The translations under genes and the position numbers were made by a program. From contig CM119372.1 in assembly GCA_051294905.1 (NCBI GenBank), positions 2,048,001 to 2,112,000 of the forward strand: a stretch of 64,000 nt of DNA, in the 5' to 3' direction. This stretch comes from Botryllus schlosseri (lineage: Eukaryota). Of the stretch, positions 13,107 through 43,553 are shown piece after piece. Within the stretch, counting starts at the first letter, position 1. The number at the start of each line of letters is the position of its first letter. The notes under the pieces were generated by a model. The model saw only the letters and a list, made by a program, of their open reading frames with translations, did no database searches and had not been told where the DNA came from.

Positions 13107-16100
13107 TTAATATGCGAATCTTTGTTCTTGATTGTAGCCGAGTTTGTCAAGATTAGGGATACAAGCGAACTTGATCATTGGTGGAGGACCGCACATGAGG
13201 ATAATGGTGTCGTCGGCAGGGGGAGGAAGATGTTCACGAATCATTTCTTCACTGATGAATCCAGACGAATATCTCCAATCTAAACAGAGCGTAGCCATGT
13301 GATACAAGGGTTAAACACAGGTGGCTTGGAGCTTCACAACCAAGCCGTGACTAGATACAGGGTTGTAACCAAGTCACAAGGCTCCGAGTCAACCTCACAA
13401 CCATAGTTTTTACTGAGTCGAGTCACGGTATTATGAATCGAGTCCAAGCCATTGCGTTTTGAGTTGAAGTCTTGTTAAAATAGGGTTACCATATTTTGGA
13501 AACATGAAAAGAAGTCACTTTTTCAAAATTTTCAGTGTTACAATACTGAAGTAAAATCCGAGAAAAATGGAAAATTTTACGTCAGTTGTCAGTTGACTAA
13601 AAAAAGGTCAACTTTCCGGCTCCACTCCCGAAATACCCGCCGGTTCCGTTACTTCAGTACTGGTTTCCTACATCTCAGTCTAATTTTCACCTATACTTCA
13701 CTTAAATTTTCAAAAGAGGACATTTGGGCACCCTTCGAGGACACTTTGAAAAAAGTCAAAAAAGAGGACAAATCCTCTTAAAAGGGAATGTATGGTAACC
13801 CTAGTTAAAACAAGTTTTCATAACTCTGGTGATATGGAAGGGTTTGCACTTGAAATAGACTAATTTTCATTACTTTTAACAGTTTCAGCACCAGTGCCAA
13901 TAGGCGAAATACCAACGGCGAGGCTACATTACTATTCTTCGGAATTACAATGAAATGTCGGTCTTGGCCGTCTGAGACTCGAGTCCAAGTCGAGTCAATA
14001 CATAGATTGACTCGAGTCGAGTCATTTCCGTCCGACATTTCACTCTAATTACACAAGTAGAAGTATCTCATTGTCCAAAACTGTGGTGATACCATTATAA
14101 AGTGATCCTTAGCTTACCTTCATTGGGCTTGTCTAGTGTGTACCACAGCTTGAATCGGCTGGGATAGCAAGCTTGAAATTCTTCAAGTTCTTCTCTCACA
14201 AGGATATCTTTTTCAGTCTGTCAAATATACAACTCGTATGGATATGGTCGACACAATCGCACAATCAATTTATCGTACATCCTCGCTCTTCACATTAAGA
14301 TAGCTCCACTGTTCCACTTACCTGATTAGCAAAAAGTAGCCACAAACAACTATCGTCATCCGCATCTGTGAGAACTTGATGGACAATTTGTAACATGGGA
14401 GTGATTCCGGTTCCGCCAGCAATCATTCCGATCTTAAAAGGAGACCCGACCTACAGCATGAATCAAGCTTGATAGCTTCGCGGTTATATTACGGCACAGA
14501 CATTTGCAGAATTTTATATATACAAGATTTACCATGTCAAAAGTACAGGGACTTTACGAGTCAATTATTTTCATTCATTCACTGGATTTACGAGACCTTC
14601 AAAAAGAGGACTATCGATCGCCTGATCCAAGCGATAGAATTGCCATTATAAATTAATGTGCTGTTCACAATTCACTGTAGTACTGAATTATAGAATAATA
14701 ATGTATTCATTCATCTTGAAAAAACCTATACTCTTTACAATTGGCCTGTACCTTTTTTACAACTTTCGTGGCGGGTGATGATTTCTTATCTGGCCGGATG
14801 CAAAACTGTCCGGGTTTGTCGTAGACGAGTAAACCATTCGGTCCGCGTACGTCAATGCTATCTCCGATATGCATGCTTTCCAGGTACTGAGACATCTTGC
14901 CCCCGTCGGGGAATTTCGGGTGAACGTTTTTGAAGTAAACCTGTAAATTTGTAGAGTTTTAAGGTTTCCACACATTATTTGTCCCGATTAAGTATCTAGA
15001 ACAGTGGTTACTAACAAGGCAAACCCAAAATTTTCACATGCAATTTACTACAGTACGGTATGCATTTAACCACACATCTTATACACATTACTATAGAATA
15101 CTGGTACGTAAAATGATATGTGGATCAACAACACTGTTAAAAGAACAATTCCACGATTGTCACAGAGTGCAATGAAATAGGTATGGTTGTAAAATTACCA
15201 AATTATCTTTAATGTCATGTAGAACTGGCATTATGCTAACTTCGTGGTTGCAAAAAGGTACGTATTTGAACTGTCCACATCATTCATACTATTTTGTAGT
15301 TATCATGATAGTGTAAATCACACAAATCACTCATGTATTCAAATTTGCCGAGTGCAAGTGCTAACCCCAGGTTAAGAACCACAGATCTACAACAGAGCTG
15401 CCTAACACAAGTATCAAACATTCTAGAGCAATATAACAGGGCACCTTCACTACAAGATCCATATGCCCTTCATCCTTATCAGATGTGACAGGCGTGTACG
15501 GTCGAATTACGAGTTGTCCACCGATCCTCGCGGTAAGATAGATGTGCTGTCCAATCGGCAGGCCAAGAATGTGGTTTTTCGAAGGTAGAGCAAATACGAA
15601 GCGTCTGAAAATCGGTAGAGTCGCATTATTGCACTCTGAAAAGCCTCTTGGAGGTACAGAATTTCAATGTACTACTGAATGATACATTCACATTCATATA
15701 TATACTAGCTATATCAATAGATATACAATATACATGTAGATATTATTCAATGGTATATTGCATTCTGTATGATATTTACTCAACCATTCAAGTCAGATGA
15801 AATAAGTATTCTTACCTTGTATCATGTGACACGATCTCCTTACCAACCAGCTTCAACGGATATTTTGTGTTTGGATCTTGCAAAGTGACGGGCTTGCTTT
15901 TCTTCTTGTTCCAAATGAGATAAGCTACAATTGCGACAAATACGCCGGCAACTCCGATTCCAATGGTCAGGTTCTGCTAGAAATTACAGAAAAGCCGAAA
16001 TTTAGCAAGAAAGTCAACAGCAATAGGCTACTAAGTAATTAGAAATTATGTCTGGCATGACATAAATTTGCATGCCGCACATCATGGAAATATAATCGTG

Positions 16101-16447: not shown

Positions 16448-16852
16448 CCCAGCTTTCTTCATCGATTTACAATACACAGAACCAGTTCAGCGTGATTAAT
16501 CCGCAGCCGCTGTTGTGACGTTGTGACTACTGTTGCAGAGGTGCAGCCTGAGCAAATTGCCGAGACGAGTTTGCTTGCAAACCAGAGATGAGCGGATTTA
16601 AAATTTCTATGTCCTAATCCAATCCAAATCCTAACCTTCAAATCCTAATCCAAATCCTAATCCATAGCTTTTTCATATTCAAGTCCATGTCCAATCCTAA
16701 TCCGATTCCAACTGGAAATTCAGAAAAAATACTAATTTATGCAATGGGGGGATTCGAAAATTTTCTTTCACAACCAATAATTCACTTTATTCAAGATAAC
16801 TTGGTAACCATAAGTACATAAATAACTAAATAGTATATTCATATTGAAATGA

Positions 16853-16896
16853 ACCCGAATATTTTCGGCTGACACTCGTCAGGGGTAATCGTCAGC
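16853..16896 (-). ncRNA. Minimal type I hammerhead ribozyme (Penelope pseudo-LTR), left arm
   Basis: Reverse complement of 20926-20969. Confidence 0.85.
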
Positions 16897-16987
16897 AACT
16901 AGTAGAGAATTGGAAAGAACATTGTATATCAACAATCGTATCACAAAATATGACGTCACCAGCATGAAATTTCGAATGAGAGAGCGT

Positions 16988-18940
16988 TCAATGTACTATT
17001 TTTAGGTGATACACGAACTCCTTTTGTTGACAGAGTTTTGGTTGGTGTATTTTGATAAAAGTTGATTCCAAGGCACACAAATGGAATTGTGAACGGCCTC
17101 GACCTACGATTCGGAATCGGTCGTCTCGATAATTATTCGCACAAATCGGATTATCCAACAGATGTTTGCCGATGGCAGAATTAATGGCTTTTGATCGATC
17201 AGCATCAATCTTGAGTGGATGAGTTAAGGGTGAGCTTTTCACATCGCGTGACGCACGTGTTCTGATAAATCTGGGGACATGTTGGTTTATGCGGTCCTGC
17301 AGACGTCTTGACGTTCTTCCCACGTAGCCACAATCACAGTGGCACCTATATTCGTACACTACATTACTTTGTTGAAGTGCAGGAAGCACGTCTTTGCGTG
17401 TTGAAGGGAGCAGTTGTGTTGTTGTAAAAATCACATTGGTTTTGACTGTATCGTAACATTTACCGACAGCAGAAATCAATTGTTTTTCAAAGCGGGTGGA
17501 AATGGGGCCAATCCAAGGTAGATGGATATAAACATCTTTTATTGTTCGTGCGGTGGGCTCTGTTCGTTTTTCTGCGTTGAATTGCGTTAATTTCCTCTCC
17601 ATGCCGCGGCTGATGACGTGTTCAGGGTAACCGTTATCAAGTAAGATTTTTCGGATGTAGTCAAGTTCTAAACTCAGTTTGTTACCCGAACATATCATCA
17701 GCGCTCTATGCACGAGTGTGCCTATGAGGTTAATTTTTCTGCGCCGAGGACTAAATGAATTCCAGCGAAGGTATTGGCCTGTGAATGTCGGTTTTCTGAA
17801 AACAGACGTTTCAAATTTGTTGGTATTGCGCTTTTCAACTAATACGTCCAGAAATGATAGTGAGTTATTGCGTTCTTTTTCTATTGTGAATTGCAAGGCC
17901 GGGTGAAGCGAGTTTAAGCGAATGAGAAATTGGTCACACTCCGATTCATTCCTGAAAATAACAAATGTATCATCTACGTATCGGCGGTACAATAGTGGTT
18001 TGGCGGACTCACGCTGGGACAGAAGCTCGCCCTCGTAATACCCTACGAAAATGTTGGCCAAAATAGGTCCCAGGGGACTTCCCATGGCTAAGCCGTCTAT
18101 TTGGCGAAACATGACCTCGTTAAAGCTAAATTCCACCGAGCAGGTTGCCGCTTGTAAAAGTTCCACAAAGACGTTACGCGGGATTGATGGTGGCGGTAAC
18201 TTACCACCGTACAGCGCGTTGGCACAAATATCAATAGTCTCATGCAGCGGAACGTTCGTAAAAAGACTAGAGATATCAAATGAGCTCAGAAACACGTCTG
18301 GATTCGGCAAATCCAGGTTTCGTATTTCACCAGCGAACGTGAACGAATCGCGAACACATTCCGTGCCGTACAATTCCCGAACCGGTTCCAAAATGTCAAT
18401 AAGCCATTTTGCCAGCTGATGGTGAGCAGACCCGATCATGGAAAGTATAGGTCTCACTGGGACATTGTCTTTGTGAGTTTTTGGCAGTCCGTACATGCGT
18501 GGTCTTTGCGATCCCGTCGGTCTGATGGCGCTGTATGTTTCTGCCGTTAGGACACCGTTTTTCTTCAATGTCAGCAAACGGTTGGTCAGTCGTCTTTCAA
18601 TTTTAGGTGTATTATCAAATTCCGAAACCGAACCAAGCGAGATAAATTTGGTTTTGTCATGCAATATTGATTCCATTTTCGAAATGTAGTCAGCTTTGTT
18701 CAGAATGACAACACCGGATCCTTTGTCTGGTTTGGTGATGTGAATTTCAGGGTTGGATCGCAATGCTTTGATGGCTAGGAAACACTCTTTGTTCATCAGG
18801 AAGTCCGCCTTGTCGACCGGGCATCCACAATACGAATGTGCCAAATCTGATAACCGAGCTTTGAGAGCAGGTATACCCTCGTCTGATTTAGGTTCGTGGT
18901 GTTTTAATTGGCCGAGGAGAACTTCAAATTCCGCAAATAC
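16988..18940 (-). CDS. Penelope-like RT + GIY-YIG endonuclease, 5'-truncated, left arm
   Basis: KPDKG, YGLPKTHK, FDISSLFTNVP, GLAMGSPLGP, RYVDD, FLDV; VVY...CHCDC.YVG.T...R..QH...IGKH; no stops. Confidence 0.93.
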   Translation of the reverse strand, partial: VFAEFEVLLGQLKHHEPKSDEGIPALKARLSDLAHSYCGCPVDKADFLMNKECFLAIKALRSNPEIHITKPDKGSGVVILNKADYISKMESILHDKTKFISLGSVSEFDNTPKIERRLTNRLLTLKKNGVLTAETYSAIRPTGSQRPRMYGLPKTHKDNVPVRPILSMIGSAHHQLAKWLIDILEPVRELYGTECVRDSFTFAGEIRNLDLPNPDVFLSSFDISSLFTNVPLHETIDICANALYGGKLPPPSIPRNVFVELLQAATCSVEFSFNEVMFRQIDGLAMGSPLGPILANIFVGYYEGELLSQRESAKPLLYRRYVDDTFVIFRNESECDQFLIRLNSLHPALQFTIEKERNNSLSFLDVLVEKRNTNKFETSVFRKPTFTGQYLRWNSFSPRRRKINLIGTLVHRALMICSGNKLSLELDYIRKILLDNGYPEHVISRGMERKLTQFNAEKRTEPTARTIKDVYIHLPWIGPISTRFEKQLISAVGKCYDTVKTNVIFTTTQLLPSTRKDVLPALQQSNVVYEYRCHCDCGYVGRTSRRLQDRINQHVPRFIRTRASRDVKSSPLTHPLKIDADRSKAINSAIGKHLLDNPICANNYRDDRFRIVGRGRSQFHLCALESTFIKIHQPKLCQQKEFVYHLKIVH

Positions 18941-20834
18941 CGAGGGTATACCTGCTCTCAAAGCTCGGTTATCAGATTTGGCACATTCGTATTGTGGATG
19001 CCCGGTCGACAAGGCGGACTTCCTGATGAACAAAGAGTGTTTCCTAGCCATCAAAGCATTGCGATCCAACCCTGAAATTCACATCACCAAACCAGACAAA
19101 GGATCCGGTGTTGTCATTCTGAACAAAGCTGACTACATTTCGAAAATGGAATCAATATTGCATGACAAAACCAAATTTATCTCGCTTGGTTCGGTTTCGG
19201 AATTTGATAATACACCTAAAATTGAAAGACGACTGACCAACCGTTTGCTGACATTGAAGAAAAACGGTGTCCTAACGGCAGAAACATACAGCGCCATCAG
19301 ACCGACGGGATCGCAAAGACCACGCATGTACGGACTGCCAAAAACTCACAAAGACAATGTCCCAGTGAGACCTATACTTTCCATGATCGGGTCTGCTCAC
19401 CATCAGCTGGCAAAATGGCTTATTGACATTTTGGAACCGGTTCGGGAATTGTACGGCACGGAATGTGTTCGCGATTCGTTCACGTTCGCTGGTGAAATAC
19501 GAAACCTGGATTTGCCGAATCCAGACGTGTTTCTGAGCTCATTTGATATCTCTAGTCTTTTTACGAACGTTCCGCTGCATGAGACTATTGATATTTGTGC
19601 CAACGCGCTGTACGGTGGTAAGTTACCGCCACCATCAATCCCGCGTAACGTCTTTGTGGAACTTTTACAAGCGGCAACCTGCTCGGTGGAATTTAGCTTT
19701 AACGAGGTCATGTTTCGCCAAATAGACGGCTTAGCCATGGGAAGTCCCCTGGGACCTATTTTGGCCAACATTTTCGTAGGGTATTACGAGGGCGAGCTTC
19801 TGTCCCAGCGTGAGTCCGCCAAACCACTATTGTACCGCCGATACGTAGATGATACATTTGTTATTTTCAGGAATGAATCGGAGTGTGACCAATTTCTCAT
19901 TCGCTTAAACTCGCTTCACCCGGCCTTGCAATTCACAATAGAAAAAGAACGCAATAACTCACTATCATTTCTGGACGTATTAGTTGAAAAGCGCAATACC
20001 AACAAATTTGAAACGTCTGTTTTCAGAAAACCGACATTCACAGGCCAATACCTTCGCTGGAATTCATTTAGTCCTCGGCGCAGAAAAATTAACCTCATAG
20101 GCACACTCGTGCATAGAGCGCTGATGATATGTTCGGGTAACAAACTGAGTTTAGAACTTGACTACATCCGAAAAATCTTACTTGATAACGGTTACCCTGA
20201 ACACGTCATCAGCCGCGGCATGGAGAGGAAATTAACGCAATTCAACGCAGAAAAACGAACAGAGCCCACCGCACGAACAATAAAAGATGTTTATATCCAT
20301 CTACCTTGGATTGGCCCCATTTCCACCCGCTTTGAAAAACAATTGATTTCTGCTGTCGGTAAATGTTACGATACAGTCAAAACCAATGTGATTTTTACAA
20401 CAACACAACTGCTCCCTTCAACACGCAAAGACGTGCTTCCTGCACTTCAACAAAGTAATGTAGTGTACGAATATAGGTGCCACTGTGATTGTGGCTACGT
20501 GGGAAGAACGTCAAGACGTCTGCAGGACCGCATAAACCAACATGTCCCCAGATTTATCAGAACACGTGCGTCACGCGATGTGAAAAGCTCACCCTTAACT
20601 CATCCACTCAAGATTGATGCTGATCGATCAAAAGCCATTAATTCTGCCATCGGCAAACATCTGTTGGATAATCCGATTTGTGCGAATAATTATCGAGACG
20701 ACCGATTCCGAATCGTAGGTCGAGGCCGTTCACAATTCCATTTGTGTGCCTTGGAATCAACTTTTATCAAAATACACCAACCAAAACTCTGTCAACAAAA
20801 GGAGTTCGTGTATCACCTAAAAATAGTACATTGA
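18941..20834 (+). CDS. Penelope-like RT + GIY-YIG endonuclease, 5'-truncated, right arm
   Basis: Translation identical to the left arm from EGIPALKARL to the C-terminal HLKIVH*. Confidence 0.93.
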
Positions 20835-20925
20835 ACGCTCTCTCATTCGAAATTTCATGCTGGTGACGTCATATTTTGTGATACGATTGTTGATATACAA
20901 TGTTCTTTCCAATTCTCTACTAGTT

Positions 20926-20969
20926 GCTGACGATTACCCCTGACGAGTGTCAGCCGAAAATATTCGGGT
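20926..20969 (+). ncRNA. Minimal type I hammerhead ribozyme (Penelope pseudo-LTR), right arm
   Basis: Stem I ACCC/GGGU, core CUGACGA (20940-20946), stem II G-C with loop UGUCAGC, GAAA, palindromic AAUAUU stem III, predicted cleavage after C20965; loop II complementary to upstream GCUGAC. Confidence 0.85.
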
Positions 20970-21584
20970 TCATTTCAATATGAATATACTATTTAATTGT
21001 ATATTGAAGTTCTGTACCTCCAAGAAGCTCTTCACATAAATAACTGATCTCACTAAAGTTTGTCGCCATTCGCCACATGAAATTTCAATCTCCCAGAAAA
21101 TCGGTAAATCCAATCCAAATCCGTTCCGAAAAAAATTTCTAATCCAAATCCGACAAAATTTCACAAATCCTGTTTTTTCAAAACCTAATCCTAATCCATG
21201 CTAATCTCTGTTGCAAACACTACACCGCGGACTGAGCAGGACGAACGTTACGGGACAACCGGTCAATATTGTGAATGGATATTATTGAGAATTGTCAATA
21301 CCAAGATTTAATTCTCTCTCTACCAGTCGTTGAAGTCAAACACTAACCTAAGTCCAGCTATATATAGGATTTCTATATATCCCTGCTCATAAAACAATGA
21401 GTTGAGGTATAATAATATCATCTAATGTGACCTCACATTCGACTATTCCAAGTCGTCTAGACTCCTTCCTATCTTTTCATTGTATCGCAATTTTGTGGTG
21501 TATTGAACTGATAAAAATTACCAAGAAACCGAACCGAATAATAATATAATTAGTATATTTCCGATCACTCAAATGTTGCAATAG

Positions 21585-22187
21585 TGCATGAAAGTCTGCC
21601 AAAGCGAAAATTATTATTCATTCCATGACCTTCAAGCAATACTGTTCAAGAAATCTTGGTACATAGTCGGCCTCGTGGACGAGGTATGCGACTTTGAGTC
21701 CTGTAGTTGCATATTGCCCGCACTCAAAACAAAATTATTGCAGGCACTACCCAATCGAATTAATCTGCGTCCAAAATGCCTGATGACGTCTCTCAACATG
21801 GCAATTTCAACTTTGCGGGGCGACAGGTAGTGCCAATGCATGTCTTTTAACGACGGCTTACTTACCTGTATAGTGTATATCTTCTCTAACAGGGATCCGA
21901 AAATCCTGAAGTGCTACCACCTGCCCACTGTTCACAATCGGCCAATTATCACGACACTCGAGACGAAGTATTTACTCGATAAAATTCATCCACAGGTATG
22001 CGGTTTGAAGATGACTAAGTTGGCGGTTGGATAAGAAAAAATATCAATCACACAATGATTTAAAACCTGGCAAATCGTTTCAATTGCGAAGACATGTGCA
22101 CCAGCAGTACTAAAAAACATTGGAAAGCACCGGGAAAATACAGGCTGCAGTCATGAGCGCACCGAGAACAGAAATGTAGCGTTATGA
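21585..22187 (+). CDS. Unrecognised short-intron gene candidate; exons 21585-21683, 21744-21826, 21893-21995, 22092-22187; possible first exon from ATG 21275
   Basis: Three short GT-AG introns (60, 66, 96 nt) with compatible phases give an open frame; no motif recognised. Confidence 0.45.
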
Positions 22188-23175
22188 GCCGTTTAGTGAG
22201 AGAAGCTGAATATGCGGACAGTAACAAATGTTACCAAATGAAAGCATACGATGATACGGGCAGAGCTGGACAACTAGAAAATGTTCAGCTATTTCTAATT
22301 GTACTAGAGTTAGAATTACAGCCACAGTTTTTTTCCAAATTAGATTACAATTGCAATCATAGCTATGCACTCATTCCAAATTAGATTAGAATTATATCTA
22401 GTTTTTTTTCAATTAGAGTAGAATTATAGCTAATTTTTCCAAATTAGATTAGAATTGGAATTATAGTTATATACTCATTACAAATTAGTTCATAATTTTA
22501 GCTGGTCTTTTTCCAAAATAAATCGGAATTACAGCAATATTCTTTTTCCTAATTAGATTAGAATGTTAGAATTCACGAAGGAAATTCAACAAAAATCAAG
22601 TTCTATTCATATAGAATCCGAGTTCGTTGTCACGAGCAAGAAAAAGGCAAATGTCTGACGTACACCAAGCTTGGCTCATATCCCATATGTACCGTTCTCC
22701 CGTAACATTTTCATGATGATCATAAATCATAGTAACATAATAGATTGCCACGATTTTCCCTCAAATTGCTCCAATCAGACAGCTGAAATAATCTAGTTGT
22801 CCAAGACCAGCCACGCTTTGCCGTACAATCACGTCGACCTGACGAAAACAGTCGAGTAATTCCACAGAAGTGATAAGGAACAATGTAAAAAAATGATTAT
22901 CGTACTAATTTGGACTTAAACACGAGTGACATGGAACACGTTACACAGCCGTAGGATGTCGCTATTAACGCGGACTTTAACCGGAGAAACGCCCTCATTT
23001 GCCACAGTGTTGTTCTGACAGCTCTTAATCCAAACATCGTGCTTACGGTCACAAGCAATACTAAAAAGGATTACTACTCGAAAAGCTGTACTCAGGCATG
23101 ATAGGTATTATGGCATGATCACTTGTAGGAATCGGGGCCGGGCAGAATTGCGTAACCAAAGACTACAGTGCCCGA

Positions 23176-23782
23176 CAGGGCTGTTCAAAAGTAACCTTTT
23201 TCCTTGAATCTTACGGGCTACGTTGATTAAATCGTTAGGTTGCCTGAAAAAACGATGCACACCAAATTTGAATTCATTCCAACCAATATTCGCGGATTTC
23301 GTACAGTATGAAAATTTTGAATTTGCCCAAAAATGCAAAAAAAAATTTTTCAAATTTTTTCTGCCAACCCCGTGATTTTGTTGCGCTGTCTTCAAAAACG
23401 ATGCAAAACAAATTTGACTCAATTCCAAGCTGTAGAAGTGGAGTTATTTCAGTTTTTCTTTGATAATCCTTGATCGCTGGATCATCCCATAATGATCATC
23501 GAAAAACTTGAATAACTCCGCTTCTACAGCTTGGAATTGAGTCAAATTTGTTCCGCATCGTTTTTGAAGACAGTGCAACAATTTCATGGGGTTCTAAGGA
23601 AAATTAAAAAAAAAAATATTTTGCAATTTTGAGCAAATTCAAAATTTTCAAACTGTACGAAATCCGCGAATATTGGTTGGAATGAATTCAAATTTGGCGT
23701 GCGTCGTTTTTTAAGGCAACTTAACGATTTAGTCACGTAGCCAGCAAGATTCAGGAAAAAGGGTTATTTTTGAACAGCCCTC
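23176..23782. mobile_element. Fold-back MITE (AGGG[CG]TGTTCAAAA family)
   Basis: ~290-bp imperfect inverted arms AGGGCTGTTCAAAA...TTTTGAACAGCCCT; TGCCCG on both flanks. Confidence 0.8.
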
Positions 23783-24208
23783 TGCCCGTACTACATCACA
23801 TTATATATAATTGGTATTTTTTCTACCATACCTTTTCCATTGCACTTGGTGACGATGCTGTGGATCGATCACGGCTCCGCAGACATGCCATTTCCGATAA
23901 CGTGTGTACCTTTGCAACACACGTTTCGTATGCTGCGTTATGAGCGATCGAAGTTTCTAGGCTTCCACAATGGAAAATGGCATCGAAACCATAATTTTCG
24001 TTGATAGATTTACACTTAATGGCAAGGAGAAAACAATTTCTCGAACTACTTTGCTCATTAACGTTAACACCAGATTCAGATTACATTACTCGAATCATTA
24101 TGCCCGGCCCTGGTAACAATATGAAAAGATATTTAAATGTAACACAGCTTGATAAAAAGAACAAGGAAATATGATAAAATGATTGAAAACCATTAGAAAC
24201 GCAAACGG

Positions 24209-27200
24209 TTATAACTCATCGTAATACTGCAGCCGTTGTTGCGGTGTCGAGTCTTGCGACTGTAAAAATAATCACGACATTAGCCGGCCGGCGACGTGGC
24301 GGAAAATTAGCGGCTCACCAGATTCTTGGCGGGGTATTTCGCGGAGCCTTTTACAGTGTTTTCCGTACGCGAATGCTCGTAGGTAGTTGTTTTATCGTCG
24401 ACTTTCAAGTCTTCGATTTCGGACTTCAAAGCCGCCAACTGTAGTTCGATGTGGCGTGACTTGGCTTGATACTCAACTCTGAAAATATGAAAGGATAATA
24501 ATAAGATTATATTATTAATATAATATCTTAATCCAGGGTATAATGACGGCGCAAAAAGCGCTACCAAAGGGGTTATAAACTTGAAGAGAACATTGTCGGT
24601 ACTCGAGTAGAAGTAGGTATATTCAAGTAAGTAAAAAAGTATTTCAGTCCCAATTTTCCGTAAATATACTGGAAACTGCGAAGTAGCAGCAGTCTCAAAT
24701 CATAACATGGCACTCGAGTAGAATTTAAGTCGTAAATTTATATCTTCCACTCAAGTAGAAACAGAAATAGCGAAGTGAAGTGACCTACTACTGTACTGAC
24801 CATCAGAACTAGAAAATTCACAGAATTTCTGAATTACATTAAAATCACAACAAGAGCTGAACAGTTTTTTCTTCCAAATTAGATTAGAGATATCAGGTTG
24901 AATTAAAAATCGATTCATAAAAACTTGAAAATCGAATTTAACCCGCATTAGAAAGACATGCAACAAAAATCAAGATAAGTTCACATCGAATACGACTTTA
25001 TTCTCGTCGTGAGTATCGCAAATGTCTGTACAGCAAGCCAGGCCCTACATTTCTCCTGTAGTATTCTCAGGAGAACCAGAGATAAGACTAGAATTAAAAA
25101 AAGAGCATAGAAGTAGATTACGGGCATTTCACTCTAACGCTTCACTGGACAATAGGAATTATCTCCAAAAACCTTTCTTTCTCTATCTCCTGCGTCAGCT
25201 GCTGCATGATATTAGTCGTGATCTGGTTCTGCGGATTCCCCGTCATATCGCCCGACGTTTTCGGGCTATGTTCGTAAGCAACACCGGCGCTTGCGTACAA
25301 CGGCGCTGATCCGTTCGCAGGTGCCGTCAGCGGCGCCACAGTCACGCTCTGCACGATGTTGAGATGATGGGGCGTGATCTGCGTGCTGTTATGGTCTGAC
25401 GAGCCGGAGCTGTTATGGTTATGGTGATAGTGAGCCGTGTTCGGGGGTAGGATTGAGTTTGTAGGCGTTGAAGTCTTCGGATGGCCCGCGCCTGTAGGGT
25501 AGATGTAATTTGCTCCGCTGTTTTCTTGGGAGTTTGAATGCTGAAAATAGGAAGACGATGTCATTTTCCGGTGACTACTCGCAATTAAGACCAAATAGCA
25601 GCACACAATATATTACTCATGTTGCCAAATTTATTTCGCTCAAAGTTTTACGGCTGACTCTCATCAGGAGCGGACGTCAGTAAATGAGGCAAACCTCGAA
25701 ATACAGAAAGAATTTTGGAAATACCGGTATTCACAATGGGTAGTTCTATAATAAATATTTAAAGAATTCGGCAGATATTCAAAAGACACGGCATCTAGCT
25801 TGCTAAAATTTCGAGCCAAGCTTGGAGTGAGACTACAGCTTTATTTCTTGTATTTCTTCCTAAGTCAGAATCGATTTCAATTTCCAAATTTTTCGCCGAT
25901 TCCATAACACTAATCTAATTCCGAAAAGCTGCACATTTTCTAGATGTCCAACTCTGCACTGATACTTACCGAAGCGTGAACGATCATAGATAATTTTTCT
26001 TTGGCCTCAAGCTGCGCTTGCTTCGCTCTTCTCAGCTCCTCTCGGAGATTTTCCGCTTCCGATGCTCTGAAACAGAGTTATCATTCCGTTGGATAGGCCC
26101 TTCAATATCCAGAGTTTAGTGATACTGATATTTTTAAAGAGACGTACAGATGCCAGTTACACATTTCAAAGTCACTTGATTGCAAACCGCGTTTTTTTTT
26201 TCGCAAATAACATTTCAGAGAAGCAGATGTGTCGATGAGGCATTGATTGACAGCTTACTTGATCCTGGACTCCTCCTGAAGTTGGTTCGTGATCCTGTCG
26301 TAACTCGAAAGCTTCTGCTGCAGCTGAACGTTGGCTTGCTGAGTCTGAAATGTAAAAAAGATCTAATAACTACGCTTCTAGTGGTTGGAATTGAGCCAAA
26401 TTTGGTGTGCTTCATCTCTACCGACAGCCTAACAATTGCGTGGGGTCGGCAGAAAAATTTTGAAATTAATTTTTTTGTTTTTTAATCATGAATTCTAAAC
26501 TTTCTACTGCGAGAAACTAGCTTCCACTAACCTAACAATTTTATCAAGTAGCCAGTGAAATCTGAAGGAAATTTTTTTTCCAGCAGCCCTTCTACGCACG
26601 TTACCGGAAATGTCATATCTGTGAGGCCGTGTTCAACCATAGAGCATTGTCACAAAGTGCAATGAAATAGGTACGGTCGAAAGTGCGCTGAATTGTCTTT
26701 GATGTGATGTAGAGCTGGCATTTTGTTCTTTGCGGACGCAAAAAGGAATATATTTGAATTTTCTACACGATTCATACTGCAGTGACGTCGTAATGAGCGA
26801 TACTCGGACGCTCTACTTGACCCGAAGCCAAGACCATCAGCGTCGTATCACAGATTTCGTTGGGTTATTCAAAACTAAATCTTTGTTTTTAAATTTTTGG
26901 TATTCCAATTCATAGGATGCGACAGCACCTTGGCATCATACCAGGGTCGTAACCGAGTCACAAGTCAATCTCACTTTTATGGTTTTGACTCGAGTCAAGT
27001 CGAGTCATTTTCAATTCGCCGCCGAGTCAATTTCGAGTTCGAGTCTGCGAGCAGAGGGTCGAGTCCGAGCCACAGTATTGTGACTCGAGCCCGATTCCAA
27101 GTCATCGTGTTGACTGCTCAGTTTCCGGTTAAAGTCTTGTTAAACCCACTTTTTGGTGATATCGAATGGTTCCCGTTTTTAATATTGTAATTTTCCTCAC

Positions 27201-30200
27201 TTTTAGCAGTTTCTGGCCGCGTTTTCCGGCACCAGCACCAATAGACGAAATCCCAATAGCGTGGTTACTTTACTATCTTTCGAAATCACAATGAAATGTC
27301 GGTCTCGGCCGTCCGAGTCTCGAGTCACGTGACTTGGTTCGAGTCATGCGCAATGACTTGAGTCCAAAAAATAGTGACTCGAGTCGAGTCGTCACAACCC
27401 CGTGTCTTACTTTGTTGAATTCCGCGGTGACTCGCTGCGTTTCTTGCTCCGCGTGGGCGGCTTTCTTCTTGAGGAGCAGTGCTTCTTCCTCGGCGACCCG
27501 AGCCTTTTCGGACAACAATTCCGCGGTCTCTTCGGAACGATGCTGAAAATTGAATAGTATAATCATATCGAAATAAACCTGAATATTTTCGGCCGACACT
27601 CGTCAGGGGCAATCGTCAGCAACCGGTTTGAAAATTTTGAATTTACCCAAATTTTTCTTTCAACCCCGTGAAATTGTTGCGCCGTCTTCAAAAACGATGC
27701 AAAACAAATTCGACTCAATTCCGACCAGTAGAAGATTTTCATTGATAATTCTGGGATTATCCTCGATCGGTGGATAATTCCGGAATTATCATCGAAAAGC
27801 TCAAATAATTTCGCTTCTACGGGTTGGAATTGAGTCAAATTTGGTGTGAGTCCTTTTTAAGGCAGTACCTAACAATCAAATCAAACAGCCAGCAAGATTC
27901 AGTTGAAAGCCCTAATGCTCACCAAAGCCTCAAACGCAGCTTTGCTCTCTTCCTGAAGTTCTTTCAACCTGGAACGGTAAAAATACGGTTTGCACGCGTC
28001 ATGTAAAAATAGTACATTCAGTCTAAGGCAGGGGTTCTCAAACAGTGCGCTACAGGAGCATGTTCAGGTAGGCCCACGGAGCTATTTGGAAAATTGTAGA
28101 ATTGGTGAAAGTTTATTTGTTATGTTATTCGCTCAAAAATACATCCATGTTGTCGAATTATACGTAGGGTACACAAAGCTTTTCATCTGAATCTGATGAG
28201 ATGTAGTGGCCCATATGAGGTCACAATCGACAAGTCGGAATGGGGCGGCTTTTGTCTCCTGGCTATGACTACCTACGGCTAACAGCAACAAAAATAATTT
28301 CGATTATATAATAACTGGAAGTTCATACTGAAGTTTCCGAGTATTATGGCGGGGTTGTATGTCGCTGAAAAGGGTGTGCATTAAACTCGGGGTGAAGTGC
28401 ATTTGATATAGATTGACGGTACTTCGGCAGGTATTATTGTAGCATAAAAATAACCATAATTGCAATCTATTATTATCAATTATCGACTTCCTGTGGAAAT
28501 ATACGGCACCACCGCAACGCTTCGTAATGGATTGAGGATTCAGCGCAGCACAATAATCTTCGGAGTCCGGCCTTGAAATCGTTGTGCATGATGGTAAAGT
28601 CATTATGAATTGATTGTATCGTTGGATTGATGTCCTGACATCGTGATTTCAGTAGGCACAAGGCATACCGTGTACCACATTGCCAAGCTAGCCTATTTTA
28701 AAAATCTTTCTCCACTTCTTTATAGTATCCCATTCACCAAAGAATTGTTTGAAGCTGGCCCAGAACGGTTACATTATTCCGCACCATAGTGGAACTAAAC
28801 CCCGATCACACAGTGGAACAGCGGACAGCAACAATTTACACAAGAGGGCGCAACTGCAGCACCCTAAACCATTAATTGGGGGGAGCTCGAAGGGGCACAA
28901 AATTACTTCGTTGGCCGTTTATTGGATGGGATTTATTCAAGTTGAAAATTTCCTTAGACTAGACGTCTAGAGTTAAATATGATTAAACCTGGCGAGTGTC
29001 AGCCGAAAACAATCAGGCTTATTTCACCATGACCATACTATTGAAACTCACTTTTGTTCTAGCTCCTCTTTCTCCATCAGAATCCTTTGCCTTTCCTCGT
29101 TCTGCCTTCTACGTTCGACCTGTCAGTTTTTGTCGTAGTGGTCAACTTTGATAATCGACTCAAAGTAACATAACATAATTATATACTCCATTTACGAGTA
29201 GAAGCAGCCATTTCGAAGACGCGTCAAAACCGCGTCAACTGGGAGTAGAAAACGTCGGTATGAAACGTGCTCGAGTGGTTCAAAAAAGTGCAAGAGGAAG
29301 TAAATATTCCAAGTAAAAAGTAGGATTCTAGGCCTAGTTTTGCCTTGGAAATACTGAAAGCTGTAGAAGTAGAGCAGTCTCAAGTAGTCTCAAATCATAA
29401 GCACTTGACTAAGTGGCGAAAGTAGGAAAAACCTACTCAAGTGCTGCAAAGAGAACTTCCTTACTGGCCACCTTTGATCGAGCTATCGCGTTAGTCACAG
29501 ACCAGCGATGTAGCCAAAAGTCGCAAGGTTCCGAGTCACCAGTCACCAGACTTTCACAGTTTTGACTCGAGTCATTTTCAATTTGCAACGGAACCAACTA
29601 CGAGTCAACCTACTTTTTCAACTCTGCTCGAGTGATATAGAATGGCTCGCATTCATAATATAGCAATTTTCCCAAGTATTAACAGTTTCTGCCCTTCTTT
29701 TTCAAGTATCAGGACTGATAGACAAAATACCAATAATGTAACGACTTTACTGTCTTCGAAGTTACAATGAAACCTCTGTCTTGGCCGACCTAGTGTCGAG
29801 TCATATGACTTGGTTCGAGTCATGCACAGTGACTCGAGTACAAGTCGAGTCAATTTACGTAATTGTAAAAAATGACTCGAGTCACCAAAAAATCCAACCC
29901 CGACGCAGGCGTACCTGTTTCCTGGCTCGCTCGTCACGGGCCTGGCTTTTCATCTGCTGAATTTCCATGCTGTCTACTTTGCGTCTTTGCATGAACAAGT
30001 CGTGGTTACCGCGACAGAGATCGAGGATCTGAAAAACGGTCGAGAGTCACCGAACATCGTACGTGGCAGGCTTATACAAACTGCTCGATTTTCAAAATGA
30101 GCGACTATCACAACAATCTAAAACTACTCACTTTCAAAGACTCGCTACTTGAAGTAGACCTGCCATACAATTGAATTGTATATTCATATTGAAATGAACC

Positions 30201-33200
30201 CGAATATGGTCGGCTGACACTTATCAGGGGTCATCGTGTGTCAGTGTCAGTCAGAGTGTCAGCCGAAACTATTCGGGTTCATTTCGATATGAATATACTA
30301 TTCAGTTGTATATTGAAGTTCTGTGCCCCCAAGAAGCTCTTTCGAGCTACCGTACCAAGAAAAACATCTAAAAATAGTACATTGAGCTTGAGCGGTCTCT
30401 TGTGCCATGATTATTCAAAATTTTACTTCATATTTGGTGATACGATTATTGATATACGAAGTTCTTTCCAATTCTCGACTAGCTGCCGCCGATTACCCCT
30501 GACGAGTGTCAGCCGAAAAGATTCGGGTTCATTTCAATATCATTATACTATAGAAATTAAACATGGAACGGCAACGATCGATTTTGCAGCTTCGTTCCGC
30601 TTCGCCGAGGCTGGAGTGGAGAATTGTTTTGCGTAAGCGACTGTAGGATTTCTGGCAATCCAAAAGCTGTCGTCTCGAGCGCAGAAATTACTGAATCTGG
30701 TCTTGATCGAAAGCTACTGTTGCACCAATTCCGAAAATATAAATTAAAATAATGGTCAGGCACTGATCCACCTAGAATCCGTCCTCCAAGTCTGAAATAT
30801 CGGCATTGTTCAGAACAATCGGGTGACCGCAACACAATGGCCATAACAATGACCCGTTTGCAACCCTCCAATTGTTCGAACAATGCCGATATTTCAGACT
30901 TGGAGGACGGATTCTAGGTGGATCAGTGCCTGACCATTATTTTAATTTATATTTTCGGAATTGGTGCAACAGTAGCTTTCGATCAAGACCAAATTCAGTA
31001 ATTTCTGCGCTCGGGACGACAGCTTTTGGATTGCCAGAAATCCTACAGTCGCTTACGCAAAACAATTCTCCACTCCAGCCTCGGCGAAGCGGAACGAAGC
31101 TGCAAAATCGATCGTTGCCGTTCCATGTTTAATTTCTATAATTATACTATACAATTGTGGCTTTTCAAGTCTTGCACCACCCCTCCACGCTATCCCGGAA
31201 ATGCCGAGCGTCAAGCCGGGAAGCCGCCGATACCACTTCCACTGATTTACCAGCCGGGGATTGAACCCACGGCCTACTGAACGAGAATCCGAACGCTCCA
31301 CCATTACGGTGTTTTGTTGGCAATCAGCAGGGCAAGTTTTAGAAACTTTGCAACTTTTTTTACAGCTTCCGGCAGCTTCCTAAATAGTCGGAAGTTATGT
31401 AGAATGCAGTTATGAGCTGTCTGACGGAATCTTATAGTGCAACTTTTTGTAACTTTTGTCCAATTTTTCACTCAACTTTTTGCAACTTTTTCGATTTTTC
31501 ATGGAAGTTTTTTCGATTTTGCATGCAACCAACATTTCACTGGAAATATTTGGCAATTAGATCACTGTTTTTTGAGAATTTTGGTGAAATACACGGCCAA
31601 ATTCGACTGAAATGCCGGAAATCAGGTTGACCTTTTTCTCTTCTTTTTAGTCAACCAATGGAGAATGTGGATGGAAAAGTGTTTAACGGGAGCAGAACTG
31701 GAAAGTCACGCAACCAAAATCTGGTCTTTTGGCGCAACTTTTGAGAAAAATAAACGCAACTTTCCACGGATTTCACTGCAACAAAAACTTGCCCTAGTAA
31801 TGAGTAGTCCTATGGGCATAGCGTATATTTACAAAGGGGTCAAAAACATGCGTTGATCGAAACAACTCAACAAATACGTACCAATTTATTTTCCCCCGGT
31901 TCGTCATTAAAAAATATGAAGTCGTTATTGGTAATATCGATAACTCCGGCCGCCACAGATTCGTCGGTGGCGGAGGGTTGGTTCCGTCGCAGCGTCGCGC
32001 TTCTCGAAGGCGGGTTTTGTTTTATCGTGAACTTGTTGTCCTTGAAAAACATATCGCAAAGTTCGCTCCACTGGAAAGACACAATCGGATGGAGACGGTC
32101 GTCTTTGTGGTACACGGACATCGACACCGCGTTGATGCCCAGCCAGAGGCTCGTGTCGTTACGGTTCTGTAGAGGAAACGAATATTAAAACACTTGATTT
32201 CTTGAGGAATACACAGCTGGATAATATCTTCACCAGGGGTGTTCAAAAATGACTTTTTTTTTCCAATCGTACTGGCTACTCGATAAAATTGTTGGGTTAC
32301 CTAATTTAAGCCTACACACCAAATTTGGTTCAATTCCAGCCAGTGGAAGCGGAGTTATTGCCGTCGAAAAATTTGGATTATGAATAAAACAGTATTTACG
32401 GTGACCAATTCTTTAAATATTTCTTATAGTGGTCCCCAAAGGCCACCGTAAATACTATTTTATTCAAATCCACATTTTTCGACGGCAATAACTCCGCTTC
32501 TACTGGTTGGAATTGAACCAAATTTGGTGTGTAGGCTAAAATTAGGTAACCCAACACTTTCATGGGGTGAAAAGAAGATTTTCAATTTTTTTGTTATTCA
32601 TTTTTATATAATAAATAGAAACTCTCTTCTCCTGTAGCAATGCGGCTATTGGCTGGAATTGAACCGAATTTGCTGTGTAGGCTTAAATTAGGTAACCTAG
32701 CAATATTATCAAGTAGCCAGTGCGATTGGAGAAAAAAAGTCCTTTTTGAACACCCCTAATCTTCACATTGAAATAAACCCGAATATTTTCGGCTGACGCT
32801 CGTCAGGGGTAAAAGTCAGCAATTAGTAGAGATTTCAAAACAAGTTTGTACATCAATGATGATATATGATAACGATATTGCTGATATAGAAAGCCGTTTT
32901 CAATTCTCTGCTAATTGCTGATGAGGCTAGAGTGAGATAGCACTAATCCAATTGTACTCTAATTCGAACTTTAACCTAATAGACGCCATTTAAGGCAGGG
33001 TTGTAATGACTCGAGTCACGACTCAACTCGAGTCACGATTTTTTGCGTAAATTTGTGTCTTGACTCGACTTGTACTTGAGTCATTGTGTTCAAATCGAGT
33101 CGTATGACTCGAGGTCAGGACACTGTGATATTTCGCTCACTTTGATGCTAAAATATTGCACGCCGCACATTTCCAGACTCTGCGCGATTTTCAGATACTC

Positions 33201-36200
33201 TAGTTCCGCTTCATCCGAGGTCATTCCACGATGGCCTGTATACCTGAATTAAAAAATACCAACATATTTCAGTCGACATTCACCGAGACAAGACGTGTTC
33301 TTCAATCCGTAAATATTTGTATTGGAAAACGAACTATATCCACTTAAGAAGTACCATGTGAACATTCAGACTCAGACTCGAGTCAAAACACTACGACTCG
33401 ACTCGACTCGACCCGCTACTAGCCGACTTGTACTCGGACTTGACTCGGTGGTGAATTGAAAATGAATAGAATTGACTCGACTCAAACTATGAACGTGAGA
33501 TTGACTTGTGACTTGAAACCTTGTGACTTACAACCTTGGTGATATCGAAGGCCTCGGTCGCATTTGCATAACATACTGATTTTTCTCACTCACGTCAAAC
33601 ACATAAAACATAGTTTCTGAGCCTATTTTCCAATTATCGGTCCTGAGATTACGTGAGGCTTGAATCAGGTCAAAGACAATATCTCGAGTCATGCACAGCA
33701 CAATGCCTCGATTTCAAGTCTAGTCAAATTTTACATATTTAACAAAATGACTCGAGTCAAGTCGGCTCACTGAAAAATTACATCACGACTCGAGTCATTA
33801 CAACCCTGCTATACACGAACTCAAACATCCTTACCAAGAAGTAATTTTTTCTTCCCACATCGCTTCAGACATTTGAAACTGTCCGATAACGCTGCTGGGC
33901 AGCAAAGTTTTCGCGTTCATGAAACCAGGCGGGTGGACTTCGACGTCGTAGTCTCCGTACTAGAATCGGAAAACTTCATTTGAAATGCCTTTCAAGATGA
34001 CCGCAACATTACGTGTTTGAAATGATGCATTAAGCAATACTCATAGCAGGGCTGAGGGCAGCAATTTGAGAGCTCAATTGTAATGATTTTAGTGGTGTAG
34101 TGATACAAAAGTACACCCTTTCACACCACGAGTAGAATTTCAACAATTGAAAATACAGTTTCAATACTAAAGGGGCACCGCACTCTGAAAATGATGTGGT
34201 CTCAAATTGAAGGGCAAAACGGAAAAAAATCTGGCCGCAGCCGTTTTCTTCAGAACGCCAACTTAATGGAGCTGCAATTTATTGATATTTCCACAGGGTC
34301 TTCACGCTCCAGCAGTCACGCAGAGATCAAATTTTATATCGTTTACAGCCGATGTTATGAAGGAAATATGTCGTACACGCCAAGGTGGTTTAGATACCAC
34401 GTTCAACGGAAGATGTTCAGTCAGGAGAATAATGTCAAAATCGGGCCTAGCGCCTAGAGTATTCTTTTTCTTTAGGACAGAAATAGATCATGTCCTATTC
34501 TTATGTATAAAACATTGTTAGTACAATGTTCAACCTCTGCATGACTGCTGGAGCGTGAAGACCCTGTGGAAATTTCGATTAATTGCAGCTCCATTACGGT
34601 GGCGTTCTGAAGATAATGGCTGCGGCAAAATTTTTTTTTTCGTTTTGCCCTTCAATTTGAGACCACATCATTTTTAGAGTGCAGTGCCCCTTGGAGCCTC
34701 GAAACCTTGGTTAACTATATCTCAGCCTCGTCGAACATGTTGCACACAGACTTGAAAAGATAGATAACTAGCTTCCATCTTTGGAGAATCTACTGCAGTC
34801 GTTGTCAATACACATATATAAACTCACCTTGGCTTGGACAGCATATGAAGCAAGCAGAACGGACGCCTCTGGAGTACAATCCAAGTCTTCTGATAAAATC
34901 AGGTGCTGGATCTATCGGAGAAATGTTTAGTGACGGAATCAAGCTCAAAGGAATGAAAAAAGCATGTCCATTTGCGAAACTAAATCGCATGATTGACTTT
35001 AAAAATACAGCTGTTCAGGACACAGACTATGCCTGTACAGAAGGGGTGTTCAAAAATGACTTTTTTTCTCAAATCGTACTGGCTACCTGATAAAATTGTT
35101 AGGTTACGTAGTTCAAACCTGCACACCAAATTTGGCTCAATTCCAACCAGTGGAAGCGGAGTTATTGCCGTCGAAAAATTTGGATTTGAATGAAATAGGA
35201 TCAACGGTGGGCACACCTATAATAAATAATTAAAGAATTGGTCATCGCAAATACTATTTTGTCGATAATCCAAATTTTTCGACGGCTATAACTCCGCCTC
35301 GACTGGTTGGAATTGAGCCATATTTGGTGAACATCGTTTCTGTAGACAACCTAACACTTTCATGGGGTTAACAGAAAATTTTGAAATTTTTGTTTTATTT
35401 ATTTTTATATAATAAATAGAAATTCTACTCCAGTAGCACAGCGGCTACTGGCTGGAATTGAACCAAATTTGGTGTTTAGTCTAAAATTAGGTAACCTAAC
35501 AATTTTATCAAGTAGCCAGTACATTTTGAGGAAAAAAGTCATTTTCAACATCCCTACTGTACAGTGCACAGTGTACACTAGCGTTGTTCAAAAATAACTA
35601 TTTTTTTCCTATGAAATTGCTAATTTGTCAAATATAACTACGACGCATAACAAATCTGGCTCAATTCCAAGCCGTAGAAGCAAAGTTATTGGACTAGAAA
35701 ATTTCGAATTTGAAATCATAGTATTTACGGTGGGTAGTTCCATACTCGCAGCAGTACTTGATCACAATTACATGGAGAAGTATTCATGATTATTCGCACA
35801 CAATTACATTCACGATTGCGATGAGATTTTTTCACGAGAGAACATTTTATTCAACACGTGATGTCTTTCCCTTGTTAGATCACAAGAAATCCATTTCCCC
35901 ATTTTATTGCTGACGATTTCTCGCCCCATCAATTTTCATTTTAGCTACGACCCACGTTAACATGGTAGGCCTATACAAGAGGATGTCTGAGCGCAGACTA
36001 AAATTTTGAGCAAATAATCGCAAAATAACGATTGATGCCAGTTTAAGTGGGAACACAGCAAGCCTAAGATAAAATGAAATACTGCCCATAACATACAAAA
36101 GTTTTTTCTCCTAAAAACACTATACCTGCAATACCCTTAACACAAATATTGCCATCAAAAAAAATGATATGTAATGATGGATTTGATATTGAAATCATGA

Positions 36201-43035: not shown

Positions 43036-43553
43036 CCTTCTTATTCTAGCAAACTTTCATCGTTTCTGTATTATTTTGATGGCGCTGAAATTTAAAATTA
43101 CCGTAGTTTTTGTCAAAAAGTGCCAAAGTGAGTCAATTGAATGAAATTGACTAAACGCTGTAACCCATTGAAGAAGAACGAGCTGTCATTTCACCCCCCG
43201 TTTCAAACGATGGGCGGATATATAGCATTTTCAGGTTTGAGATTCAAGCACAATACTTTCGTATCTGTTATGTTCTTGATCTTGTTCGAACAATAACTCA
43301 ATACGACGAGGTTGCAATACAGAATCAGTATATTGTACAGCAAAATAACTTTACGGCAGCGACACGATCCAGAGTGCAGTTAAATGAAAGACCAGTAGAC
43401 AACAGAACGATGGGTATAAATACGAAGCACGACACACGAGGAAATAATGATTGGCGGTATTTACTAATCCTAGACAAATAAGAAACAAACGATACCAACG
43501 TAAAATGCACGAACATAACAGTCCTCCCCTGTAAGTTAAGAATACAAGGTAGT

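What the first reader, a model, noticed from the sequence alone, without database searches (positions are those of the whole stretch)
30165..30343. 180-bp miniature with the same asymmetric palindrome architecture
Seen: an inverted pseudo-LTR lacking most of the tail and extending further 5', joined head-to-head to a more truncated pseudo-LTR that carries the full tail (…CAAGAAGCTCTTTC), with short GTCA repeats at the junction. This is the same polarity rule as the 4.2-kb unit at about one twentieth of the size, and the copy is more diverged. A looser head-to-head pair lies at ~32767-32925. Inference: palindrome formation is a routine outcome of this family's integration, making it a recurrent generator of hairpin loci, and this argues against an assembly artefact for the large copy.
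Basis: partly seen in the sequence, partly recalled or inferred. Interest (0 to 1): 0.72.

Follow-up and report, generated by a model that had tools for sequence, protein, structure and literature searches.

The report
Tiny head-to-head Penelope retroelement remnant
This 175-base palindrome is an old, heavily truncated insertion of a Penelope-type jumping gene, with two end pieces joined head to head in an intron, which is the ordinary and already described way these elements insert.

Summary
30169-30343 holds two pseudo-LTR remnants of a Penelope/Poseidon-type retroelement joined head to head (arms 51/58 identical). Only the right arm has the tail, which encodes the ORF's first codons. A decayed 12-bp target duplication (9/12; p about 0.03-0.05) probably bounds it. 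It lies in an intron of a FERM-domain gene.

Head-to-head insertion is routine: 4 of 9 family loci in the window, 10 of 23 readable junction sites in a related family elsewhere, and described in print as the most frequent arrangement (PMC3846280). The proposed polarity rule (tail on the more truncated arm) is not general: clear in 2 of 4 window pairs; in relatives 2 for, 6 against, 1 flipped between assemblies, 1 unreadable. What holds is exactly one tail per pair (8 of 8), which the literature already describes in looser terms.

Likely mechanism (inferred): two target-primed cDNAs, started at the two known initiation sites and end-joined by microhomology. No contig spans the locus and there is no locus-specific RNA evidence. 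The scan earlier reached the same reading for the 4.2-kb copy in this window. Ordinary.

The parts
30157..30168 (+). Probable left copy of a decayed 12-bp target-site duplication
   Evidence: 9/12 match to 30344-30355; random site pairs reach this score in 141/3000, 67/1500 and 43/1500 trials; same length as the duplications of two other family insertions in the window
30169..30237 (-). Inverted, tail-less pseudo-LTR remnant (ref 20930 to about 20998, or to 21002 if 30165-30168 is counted). Its hammerhead-like core is damaged (CTGACGA to CTGATAA, GAAA to GACC)
30238..30253 (+). Junction filler of re-iterated copies of the right arm's 5' start; the junction falls in one of only two 6-bp inverted repeats of the pLTR (ref 20926-31 / 20949-54)
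30254..30343 (+). Direct pseudo-LTR remnant with full tail (ref 20945-21033); lacks the CUGA of the hammerhead core; 30289-30342 encodes the first 18 residues of the element ORF
   Evidence: family-wide loose ends at 30341 in 127/123/126 contigs and 180 RNA reads
30344..30355 (+). Probable right copy of the target-site duplication
30365..31158 (+). Neighbouring third family copy (ORF end, 3' UTR, pLTR; tail-less), split by a foldback element at 30549-31140; probably a separate insertion
16828..21033 (.). Young 4.2-kb head-to-head copy of the same family used as reference: arms 2054/2054 identical, 59-nt spacer, 12-bp duplication at 16816-27 / 21034-45, RT and GIY-YIG-type ORF
32197..32933 (.). 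Second old head-to-head pair: minus arm ref 20881 onward, split by a hAT-like insert 32234-32758 (8-bp duplication), with its tail beyond the insert; plus arm ref about 20879-20933
   Evidence: tail continuation reached by 8/1000 and 2/1000 random stretches
15639..15755 (.). Third old head-to-head pair: tail arm on minus, tail-less arm on plus, 11-12-bp duplication (11/12 match)
30029..31881 (-). Host intron of a FERM-domain (merlin/ERM-like) gene that contains the finding
   Evidence: upstream exon hits FERM_C at E 4.5e-11; exon frames and splice sites read; the merlin/ERM likeness is recalled

Best explanation
A single old, extremely 5'-truncated insertion of an endonuclease-bearing Penelope/Poseidon-type retroelement: two pseudo-LTR remnants head to head, one ending at the family's tail end and one at the tail-less end, between a decayed duplication of about 12 bp. 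SHOWN: family identity, arm geometry, tail equals the ORF's first codons, recurrence of the architecture. PROBABLE: the duplication and hence a single event. INFERRED mechanism (about 50% against the rivals): the GIY-YIG nuclease nicks both target strands about 12 nt apart; each 3' end primes reverse transcription, one at the tail-end initiation site and one at the internal site 30-40 nt upstream; both cDNAs abort inside the pLTR; their 3' ends are joined through short microhomology at the pLTR's own 6-bp inverted repeat, with repeated slippage that left the GTCAG iterations. It is a dead-on-arrival fragment with no ORF and no intact ribozyme core. It can fold into a hairpin if the host intron is transcribed, but no function is indicated.
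For: Arms match the pLTR of an RT element with 2279 homologues at E<=1e-20 among 8000 scored; the best homologue has RVT_1 and a sub-cutoff GIY-YIG hit. pLTR end plus tail translate to the N-terminus seen in full-length homologues. Fixed tail end family-wide. 12-bp duplications in the young copy (12/12), in the 15639 pair (11/12), here (9/12) and in relatives L055, L059 (12/12) and L030 (11/12). Exactly one tail in 8 of 8 pairs with both outer ends visible (4 window, 4 relatives). By BLAST boundaries, relatives' junctions show 2-4-nt overlaps or short fillers. In vitro, a Poseidon protein nicks and extends both target strands and starts at two sites that bound the tail (PMC11167929, parts 1-2 of 4 read). 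A sense-strand arm cannot gain a tail by copying a tail-less cDNA, which argues for two primed cDNAs (inference).
Against: The duplication is only moderately significant (p 0.03-0.05), and an exact-match scan found none. The arms share no private variant: their one shared difference from the reference, 20994, is also in other copies, so common origin is not shown by sequence. A 9-bp direct repeat at 30165-73 / 31149-57 would fit a larger composite. No duplication was found for the 32197-32933 pair, and none or only 7 bp for relatives L016, L021 and L039. The joining step has not been shown for any PLE in the papers I read; PMC3846280 prefers self-priming on an antisense template.
Confidence: 0.85

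Rival explanations
1. Same element and same single event, but the palindrome arose by snap-back (self-priming): one strand folded on the pLTR's internal inverted repeat and copied itself, and the tail was trimmed from one end during endonuclease resolution.
For: All four window pairs are near-symmetric (5' ends differ by 59, 15, about 2 and 3-8 nt), even with 2-kb arms. The junction lies in a 6-bp internal inverted repeat. Self-priming on an antisense template is the reading of PMC3846280 (Discussion read); EN-mediated resolution as the source of the one-sided tail is suggested in PMC8557442 (passages).
Against: Simple snap-back cannot put a tail on the copied (shorter) arm that the template arm lacks. 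At 7 of 10 sites in relatives the inverted arm is little more than a pLTR while the other arm starts far further 5', which snap-back explains only with a loop of more than 1 kb.
Confidence: 0.3
2. The finding is only the 5' part of a larger composite (inverted pLTR + pLTR + almost wholly deleted ORF + pLTR, about 30165-31158), the classic three-pLTR layout; or the two arms are independent insertions.
For: A third copy starts 21 nt after the tail in the same orientation. A perfect 9-bp direct repeat lies at 30165-73 / 31149-57. The three-pLTR layout is typical (PMC3846280). No variant is private to the two arms.
Against: The 9-mer is itself pLTR sequence (9/9 on the left, 8/9 on the right, around a palindromic hexamer). 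The right arm stops exactly at the family-wide tail end and does not continue into ORF-like residues. A 12-bp duplication begins at the very next base.
Confidence: 0.12
3. The hairpin is a retained functional RNA element (small-RNA source, or modulator of the 3' splice site 130-140 nt away).
For: Strong predicted hairpin (-69 kcal/mol on the host strand). It lies in a host intron. PLE copies yield small RNAs in a rotifer (PMC3846280).
Against: The 7 arm differences are unrepaired mismatches or wobble pairs, as neutral decay gives. Only 10 of 5000 laid RNA reads were 99%+ alike to the stretch, and the adjacent host exon had zero depth in the 6% of the one RNA run read, so the run is uninformative rather than negative.
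Confidence: 0.05
4. Assembly artefact (fold-back chimera).
For: No contig of the three DNA runs spans the locus; the nearest unique contigs stop at 30099 and 31180.
Against: The arms differ at 7 of 58 positions, differ in length and have a complex filler; an in-silico or library fold-back gives identical arms. Similar junctions occur in independent contigs and in other organisms.
Confidence: 0.02

Closest known systems
Head-to-head insertions of EN+ Penelope-like elements, Penelope/Poseidon clade (Adineta vaga Pen2/Pen2a, PMC3846280; Drosophila virilis Penelope, PMC2377424; scheme in PMC8557442 Fig. 2 legend)
   Same: Inverted 5'-truncated pLTR at the 5' junction; 30-40-nt tail at one end only; pLTR plus tail encode the ORF's first residues; target duplication of similar size (8-10 bp in the rotifer, about 12 here)
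   Different: Both arms are truncated inside the pLTR, so nothing of the ORF body remains; iterated microhomology filler at the junction. A difference of size, not of kind.
Poseidon of Anolis carolinensis (PAc) in vitro (PMC11167929)
   Same: Two initiation sites bounding the tail; AT-rich targets; ORF start inside the pLTR next to a hammerhead motif; both strands nicked and extended
   Different: In the parts I read, the paper does not reconstitute or explain the inverted junction
L1 twin priming
   Same: Both target ends prime cDNA, and the products are joined by microhomology to give a 5' inversion
   Different: In L1 the two pieces are adjacent and non-overlapping; here they overlap on the element, giving a palindrome. 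Relative L039 shows an L1-like adjacent piece (ref 829-990 inverted, 984 onward direct).
Animal non-LTR retrozymes (bioRxiv 10.64898/2026.07.22.740005, passages) and MITEs/foldback elements
   Same: Short, non-coding, pLTR-derived (retrozymes) or palindromic (MITEs)
   Different: No tandem head-to-tail units, no intact ribozyme core, no sign that this unit was amplified, and ends are not transposase-type terminal repeats

Membership tests
EN+ Penelope-like element, Penelope/Poseidon clade | Parent element has a PLE-type RT followed by a C-terminal GIY-YIG endonuclease with CCHH | tested here: met
   RVT_1 at E 6e-9 in the 4.2-kb copy. Its best homologue (64%) has RVT_1 and GIY-YIG at 22.5 bits against a cutoff of 22.6. 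C533, C535, H554, H593 and the Y..G motif are invariant in 25 sequences. Pfam did not call GIY-YIG on the window protein itself. The finding has no ORF; membership is through 90-93% DNA identity.
EN+ Penelope-like element, Penelope/Poseidon clade | Pseudo-LTR whose 3' part and optional 30-40-nt tail encode the ORF N-terminus | tested here: met
   20980-21033 and 30289-30342 translate to the N-terminal pattern of the full-length homologues (22 of 45 printed); they are the two best window hits of the N-terminal profile, though weak (iE 0.011, 0.085)
EN+ Penelope-like element, Penelope/Poseidon clade | Inverted 5'-truncated copy at the 5' junction, tail on one end | tested here: met
EN+ Penelope-like element, Penelope/Poseidon clade | Target-site duplication | tested here: inconclusive
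   9/12 decayed match, p 0.03-0.05; family copies show 12/12 and 11/12
EN+ Penelope-like element, Penelope/Poseidon clade | Minimal type I hammerhead motif in the pLTR | tested here: inconclusive
   Core letters, G-C closing pair (7/7) and palindromic helix III are present in the family; 77.8% of cells pair against 23-33% when slid, but covariation is not significant (40-96 of 500 shuffles) and rests mostly on one divergent copy. No Rfam hammerhead hit. Core destroyed in both arms of the finding. Cleavage is not testable here.
EN+ Penelope-like element, Penelope/Poseidon clade | Phylogenetic placement in Penelope/Poseidon rather than Neptune, Nematis or Naiad | not tested
   No tree built. Domain order and no obvious linker Zn finger fit; clade definitions from PMC8557442 passages.
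Non-LTR retrozyme | Amplified monomer or tandem units with an intact hammerhead | tested here: not met
   Head-to-head, single, core mutated or missing
MITE / foldback DNA transposon | Terminal inverted repeats reaching both ends, multiple copies with the same ends | tested here: not met
   Ends are asymmetric by the tail; no second copy with this junction in the window or among the 15 joints shown (206 not shown)

The most novel reading that the evidence does not exclude
Head-to-head PLE insertions are made by tandem twin priming on one RNA: a leading RT starts at the internal site, a trailing RT starts at the tail end and follows by strand displacement, and both abort together. The pLTR's ribozyme-associated inverted repeat would be a preferred joining site. 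I found no such model in the searches.
Probability: 0.2. Interest if true: 0.45.

Novelty: new member of a known kind. Interest (0 to 1): 0.14.

Why it matters
On its own, little: one decayed copy of a very abundant family in a standard arrangement. Its use is as a fossil of an unresolved step. How PLEs form inverted junctions is named as open in PMC8557442 and PMC11167929. A high-copy family with 12-bp duplications, a fixed tail end and readable junction fillers could separate twin priming from snap-back if tabulated genome-wide.

Tried and rejected
Whole-genome tabulation: impossible, no genome is held. Pattern scan of metagenome contigs with a 20-nt pLTR motif: 0 matches. Earlier findings by sequence: nothing. 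Rfam at E<=5 over 16000-34000: 8 matches, all below gathering score, none a hammerhead. Sequencing runs: no RNA holder listed, which is no evidence either way. Laying runs at 88% likeness flooded the tables with family copies (22073 contigs in X1); no contig bridged the locus, no empty allele was seen, and no fraction or polarity could be counted (the three DNA runs are one sample). Idea that the left arm has a decayed tail: not beyond chance, 310/1500 (59/1500 with a shifted anchor). Idea that targets resemble the tail: weak and inconsistent (28/1500, 64/1500, 1500/1500, 1500/1500), although the 15639 pair's target does resemble it; left open. Idea that the right arm runs on into the ORF: residues after the tail do not match homologues. 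The first test of the 32759 copy's tail used a wrong anchor (373/1500) and was redone. The first hammerhead pair count was mis-indexed and was redone. My first self-BLAST filter missed perfect palindromes and was replaced by mapping to a natural reference locus. No inverted partner was found near 9675-9912, 25607-25683 or 58097. The literature search for hairpin siRNA from Penelope inverted repeats gave 4 general papers, seen as listings only.
Full report
OBSERVATION. With the right arm of the 4.2-kb unit as reference, the finding resolves into a minus-strand piece 30237->30165 (ref 20930-21002, 90.4%) and a plus-strand piece 30254-30341 (ref 20945-21032, 93.2%). The arms agree at 51 of 58 positions. 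The region folds at -90.6 kcal/mol, z -10.9, with 0 of 200 shuffles as good. The left arm reaches 15 nt further 5'; only the right arm has the tail. The 16-nt filler repeats the start of the right arm; 5 of 63984 window 16-mers hold two copies of that 6-mer. The junction falls in one of only two 6-bp inverted repeats of ref 20900-21000. The looser pair near 32767-32925 is real. The description is confirmed.

WHAT IT IS. The parent is a Penelope-like element. The 650-aa frame of the large copy has RVT_1 and 2279 homologues at E<=1e-20 among 8000 scored. The best homologue is 841 aa with RT and a marginal GIY-YIG hit, and the CCHH residues are invariant in 25 sequences. The end of the pLTR plus the tail translates, in both the large copy and the finding's right arm, to an 18-residue peptide matching the N-termini of full-length homologues, so the tail is the start of the next unit's ORF, as described for rotifer PLEs (PMC3846280, passages). 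In public DNA contigs the family ends at the same base: 127, 123 and 126 contigs in three runs of one sample and 180 RNA reads have loose ends behind 30341, with mixed AT-rich continuations. The pLTR carries a minimal hammerhead-like motif of the kind in PMC4209133 (passages). Pairing is 77.8% against 23-33% for slid controls, but covariation is not significant and Rfam gave no hit. In the finding the core is mutated (left arm) or missing (right arm).

BOUNDARIES. The large copy has a perfect 12-bp duplication, and the pair at 15639-15755 has an 11/12 one. For the finding an exact scan found none, but a 9/12 match starts at the first base after the tail (30157-68 / 30344-55). Random sites reach that score in 141/3000, 67/1500 and 43/1500 trials. 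Given the family's 12-bp habit and 12% arm divergence, I take it as probably real, which makes the insert 30169-30343. Against this, a third copy follows at 30365-31158 and a 9-bp repeat at 30165-73 / 31149-57 could bound a composite; that 9-mer is explained as pLTR sequence, and the right arm does not continue into ORF-like residues. The locus is in an 1853-nt intron (30029-31881) of a minus-strand FERM gene (FERM_C, E 4.5e-11; splice sites read), 130-140 nt from the acceptor.

IS IT ROUTINE? In the window, 4 of 9 family loci are head to head (15639, 16828, 30169, 32197). The other five are 9675, 25607, 27548, 28981 and 30365; a doubtful tenth at 58097 (E 1.1) was left out. In one search, 8 of the 15 joints shown run from the inverted arm to a direct arm (15 contigs in X1; sides 22-43 nt; 206 joints not shown), which I read as junctions of other copies. 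For an outside test I fetched 80 loci of related elements. Of these, 18 were outside the family of reference locus L028 and 2 gave no long hit; of the other 60 I dropped those with under about 150 nt upstream (keeping L049, which shows its junction) and the two tandem loci. That left 26 clusters, 11 with an inverted family piece at the 5' junction. Merging clusters with identical breakpoints gives 10 of 23 sites (10 of 21 if three similar ones are one). This is another family (about 60% amino-acid identity), in short-read contigs that under-represent long palindromes, and selected for one long arm. In print, head-to-head is called the most frequently observed arrangement (PMC3846280, Discussion), and an inverted truncated copy with a one-sided 30-40-bp tail is the standard scheme (PMC8557442, passages; PMC2377424, passages).

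THE POLARITY RULE. Window: it holds for the large copy (59 nt) and the finding (15 nt). The 32197 pair is symmetric within about 2 nt, and the 15639 pair within 3-8 nt, leaning the other way. Relatives, 10 sites: at 6 the short inverted arm lacks the tail (L016, L014, L019, L030/L059, L038, L050; the long arm's tail is seen directly at two of them). At 2 the rule agrees (L032; L039). At 1 the 13-nt spacer points one way in L055/L056 and the other way in L049. One site (L051) is unreadable. An extra internal pair in L021 also goes against the rule. So the rule is not general, and spacer orientation between inverted arms can flip by recombination or misassembly. That matters for the large copy, whose arms are 2054/2054 identical. 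What does hold is exactly one tail in 8 of 8 pairs with both ends visible.

MECHANISM. Known: a purified Poseidon protein nicks and extends both target strands and initiates at two sites that bound the tail (PMC11167929, parts 1-2 of 4). Inferred: staggered nicks 12 nt apart prime two cDNAs, one at each site; both abort and are joined through 2-6 nt of microhomology, here at the pLTR's own inverted repeat with slippage. This accounts for one tail, the duplication and the filler. Snap-back on one strand explains the near-symmetry but needs an extra trimming step for the tail; I give about 50% to twin priming and 30% to snap-back.

EXPRESSION AND ARTEFACT. No contig spans the locus, and the host exon had no depth in the 6% of the one RNA run read, so neither question was tested directly. 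Unequal, 12%-diverged arms with a complex filler are not what a fold-back artefact gives.

VERDICT. A real, ordinary, dead Penelope-type fragment in the standard head-to-head arrangement. New member of a known kind, low interest.

Noticed in passing
window 27548-27623 and 28981-29045: Two family pLTR copies end within about 5 nt of host splice sites (27548 beside an acceptor, 29045 beside a donor). They are inverted relative to each other (78% over 65 nt) across a host exon near 27922-27972, so they could pair in the pre-mRNA.
   Followed up: no
window 27548-27623 and 32759-32865: Both copies lie in sense with the host transcript and keep intact hammerhead core letters, whereas the finding's sense arm has three core substitutions. 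The numbers are too small to argue for selection.
   Followed up: partly
window 20926-20931 / 20949-20954: The pLTR hammerhead-like motif has a one-pair helix II whose loop can pair (6 bp) with sequence upstream of helix I, a possible pseudoknot; 78% of cells paired, no compensatory change.
   Followed up: partly
window 28000-28021 and 30365-30385: Two copies begin at the same element position (about ref 20814, the last codons of the ORF). With the 30386-30389 skip joints this hints at a short non-autonomous subfamily.
   Followed up: no
joint 30200->30478: One head-to-head junction with a 6-nt filler has depth 876 in X1 against about 85 for unique contigs, suggesting a head-to-head unit present in about ten copies, amplified as a unit or inside another repeat.
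   Followed up: no
L039 3635-3995 and L055 3472-4017: Inverted arms made of an ORF piece next to the junction, then a jump to the pLTR: either deletion inside one arm of a former long palindrome or a template jump. L039's piece abuts the start of the direct arm like an L1 inversion.
   Followed up: partly
window 30549-31140, 32234-32758, 54822-55411, 52798-53220: Many foldback or MITE-like palindromes unrelated to the PLE; two have inserted into pLTR copies, with 7-9-bp and 8-bp duplications.
   Followed up: partly
window 31160-31310: A tRNA-like SINE on the minus strand (A/B-box-like motifs by eye; 71% similar copies at 52813-52945 and 53073-53205). About 3000 RNA reads from another abundant RNA match only 31167-31204.
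   Followed up: no
window 15627-15638 / 15756-15767: The target duplication of the old pair resembles the element's own tail sequence, a possible case of microhomology-assisted priming.
   Followed up: partly
window 43266-48005: A gypsy-like LTR retrotransposon: 201-nt direct repeats at 98% around gag-pol and integrase frames; the family label is by eye.
   Followed up: no
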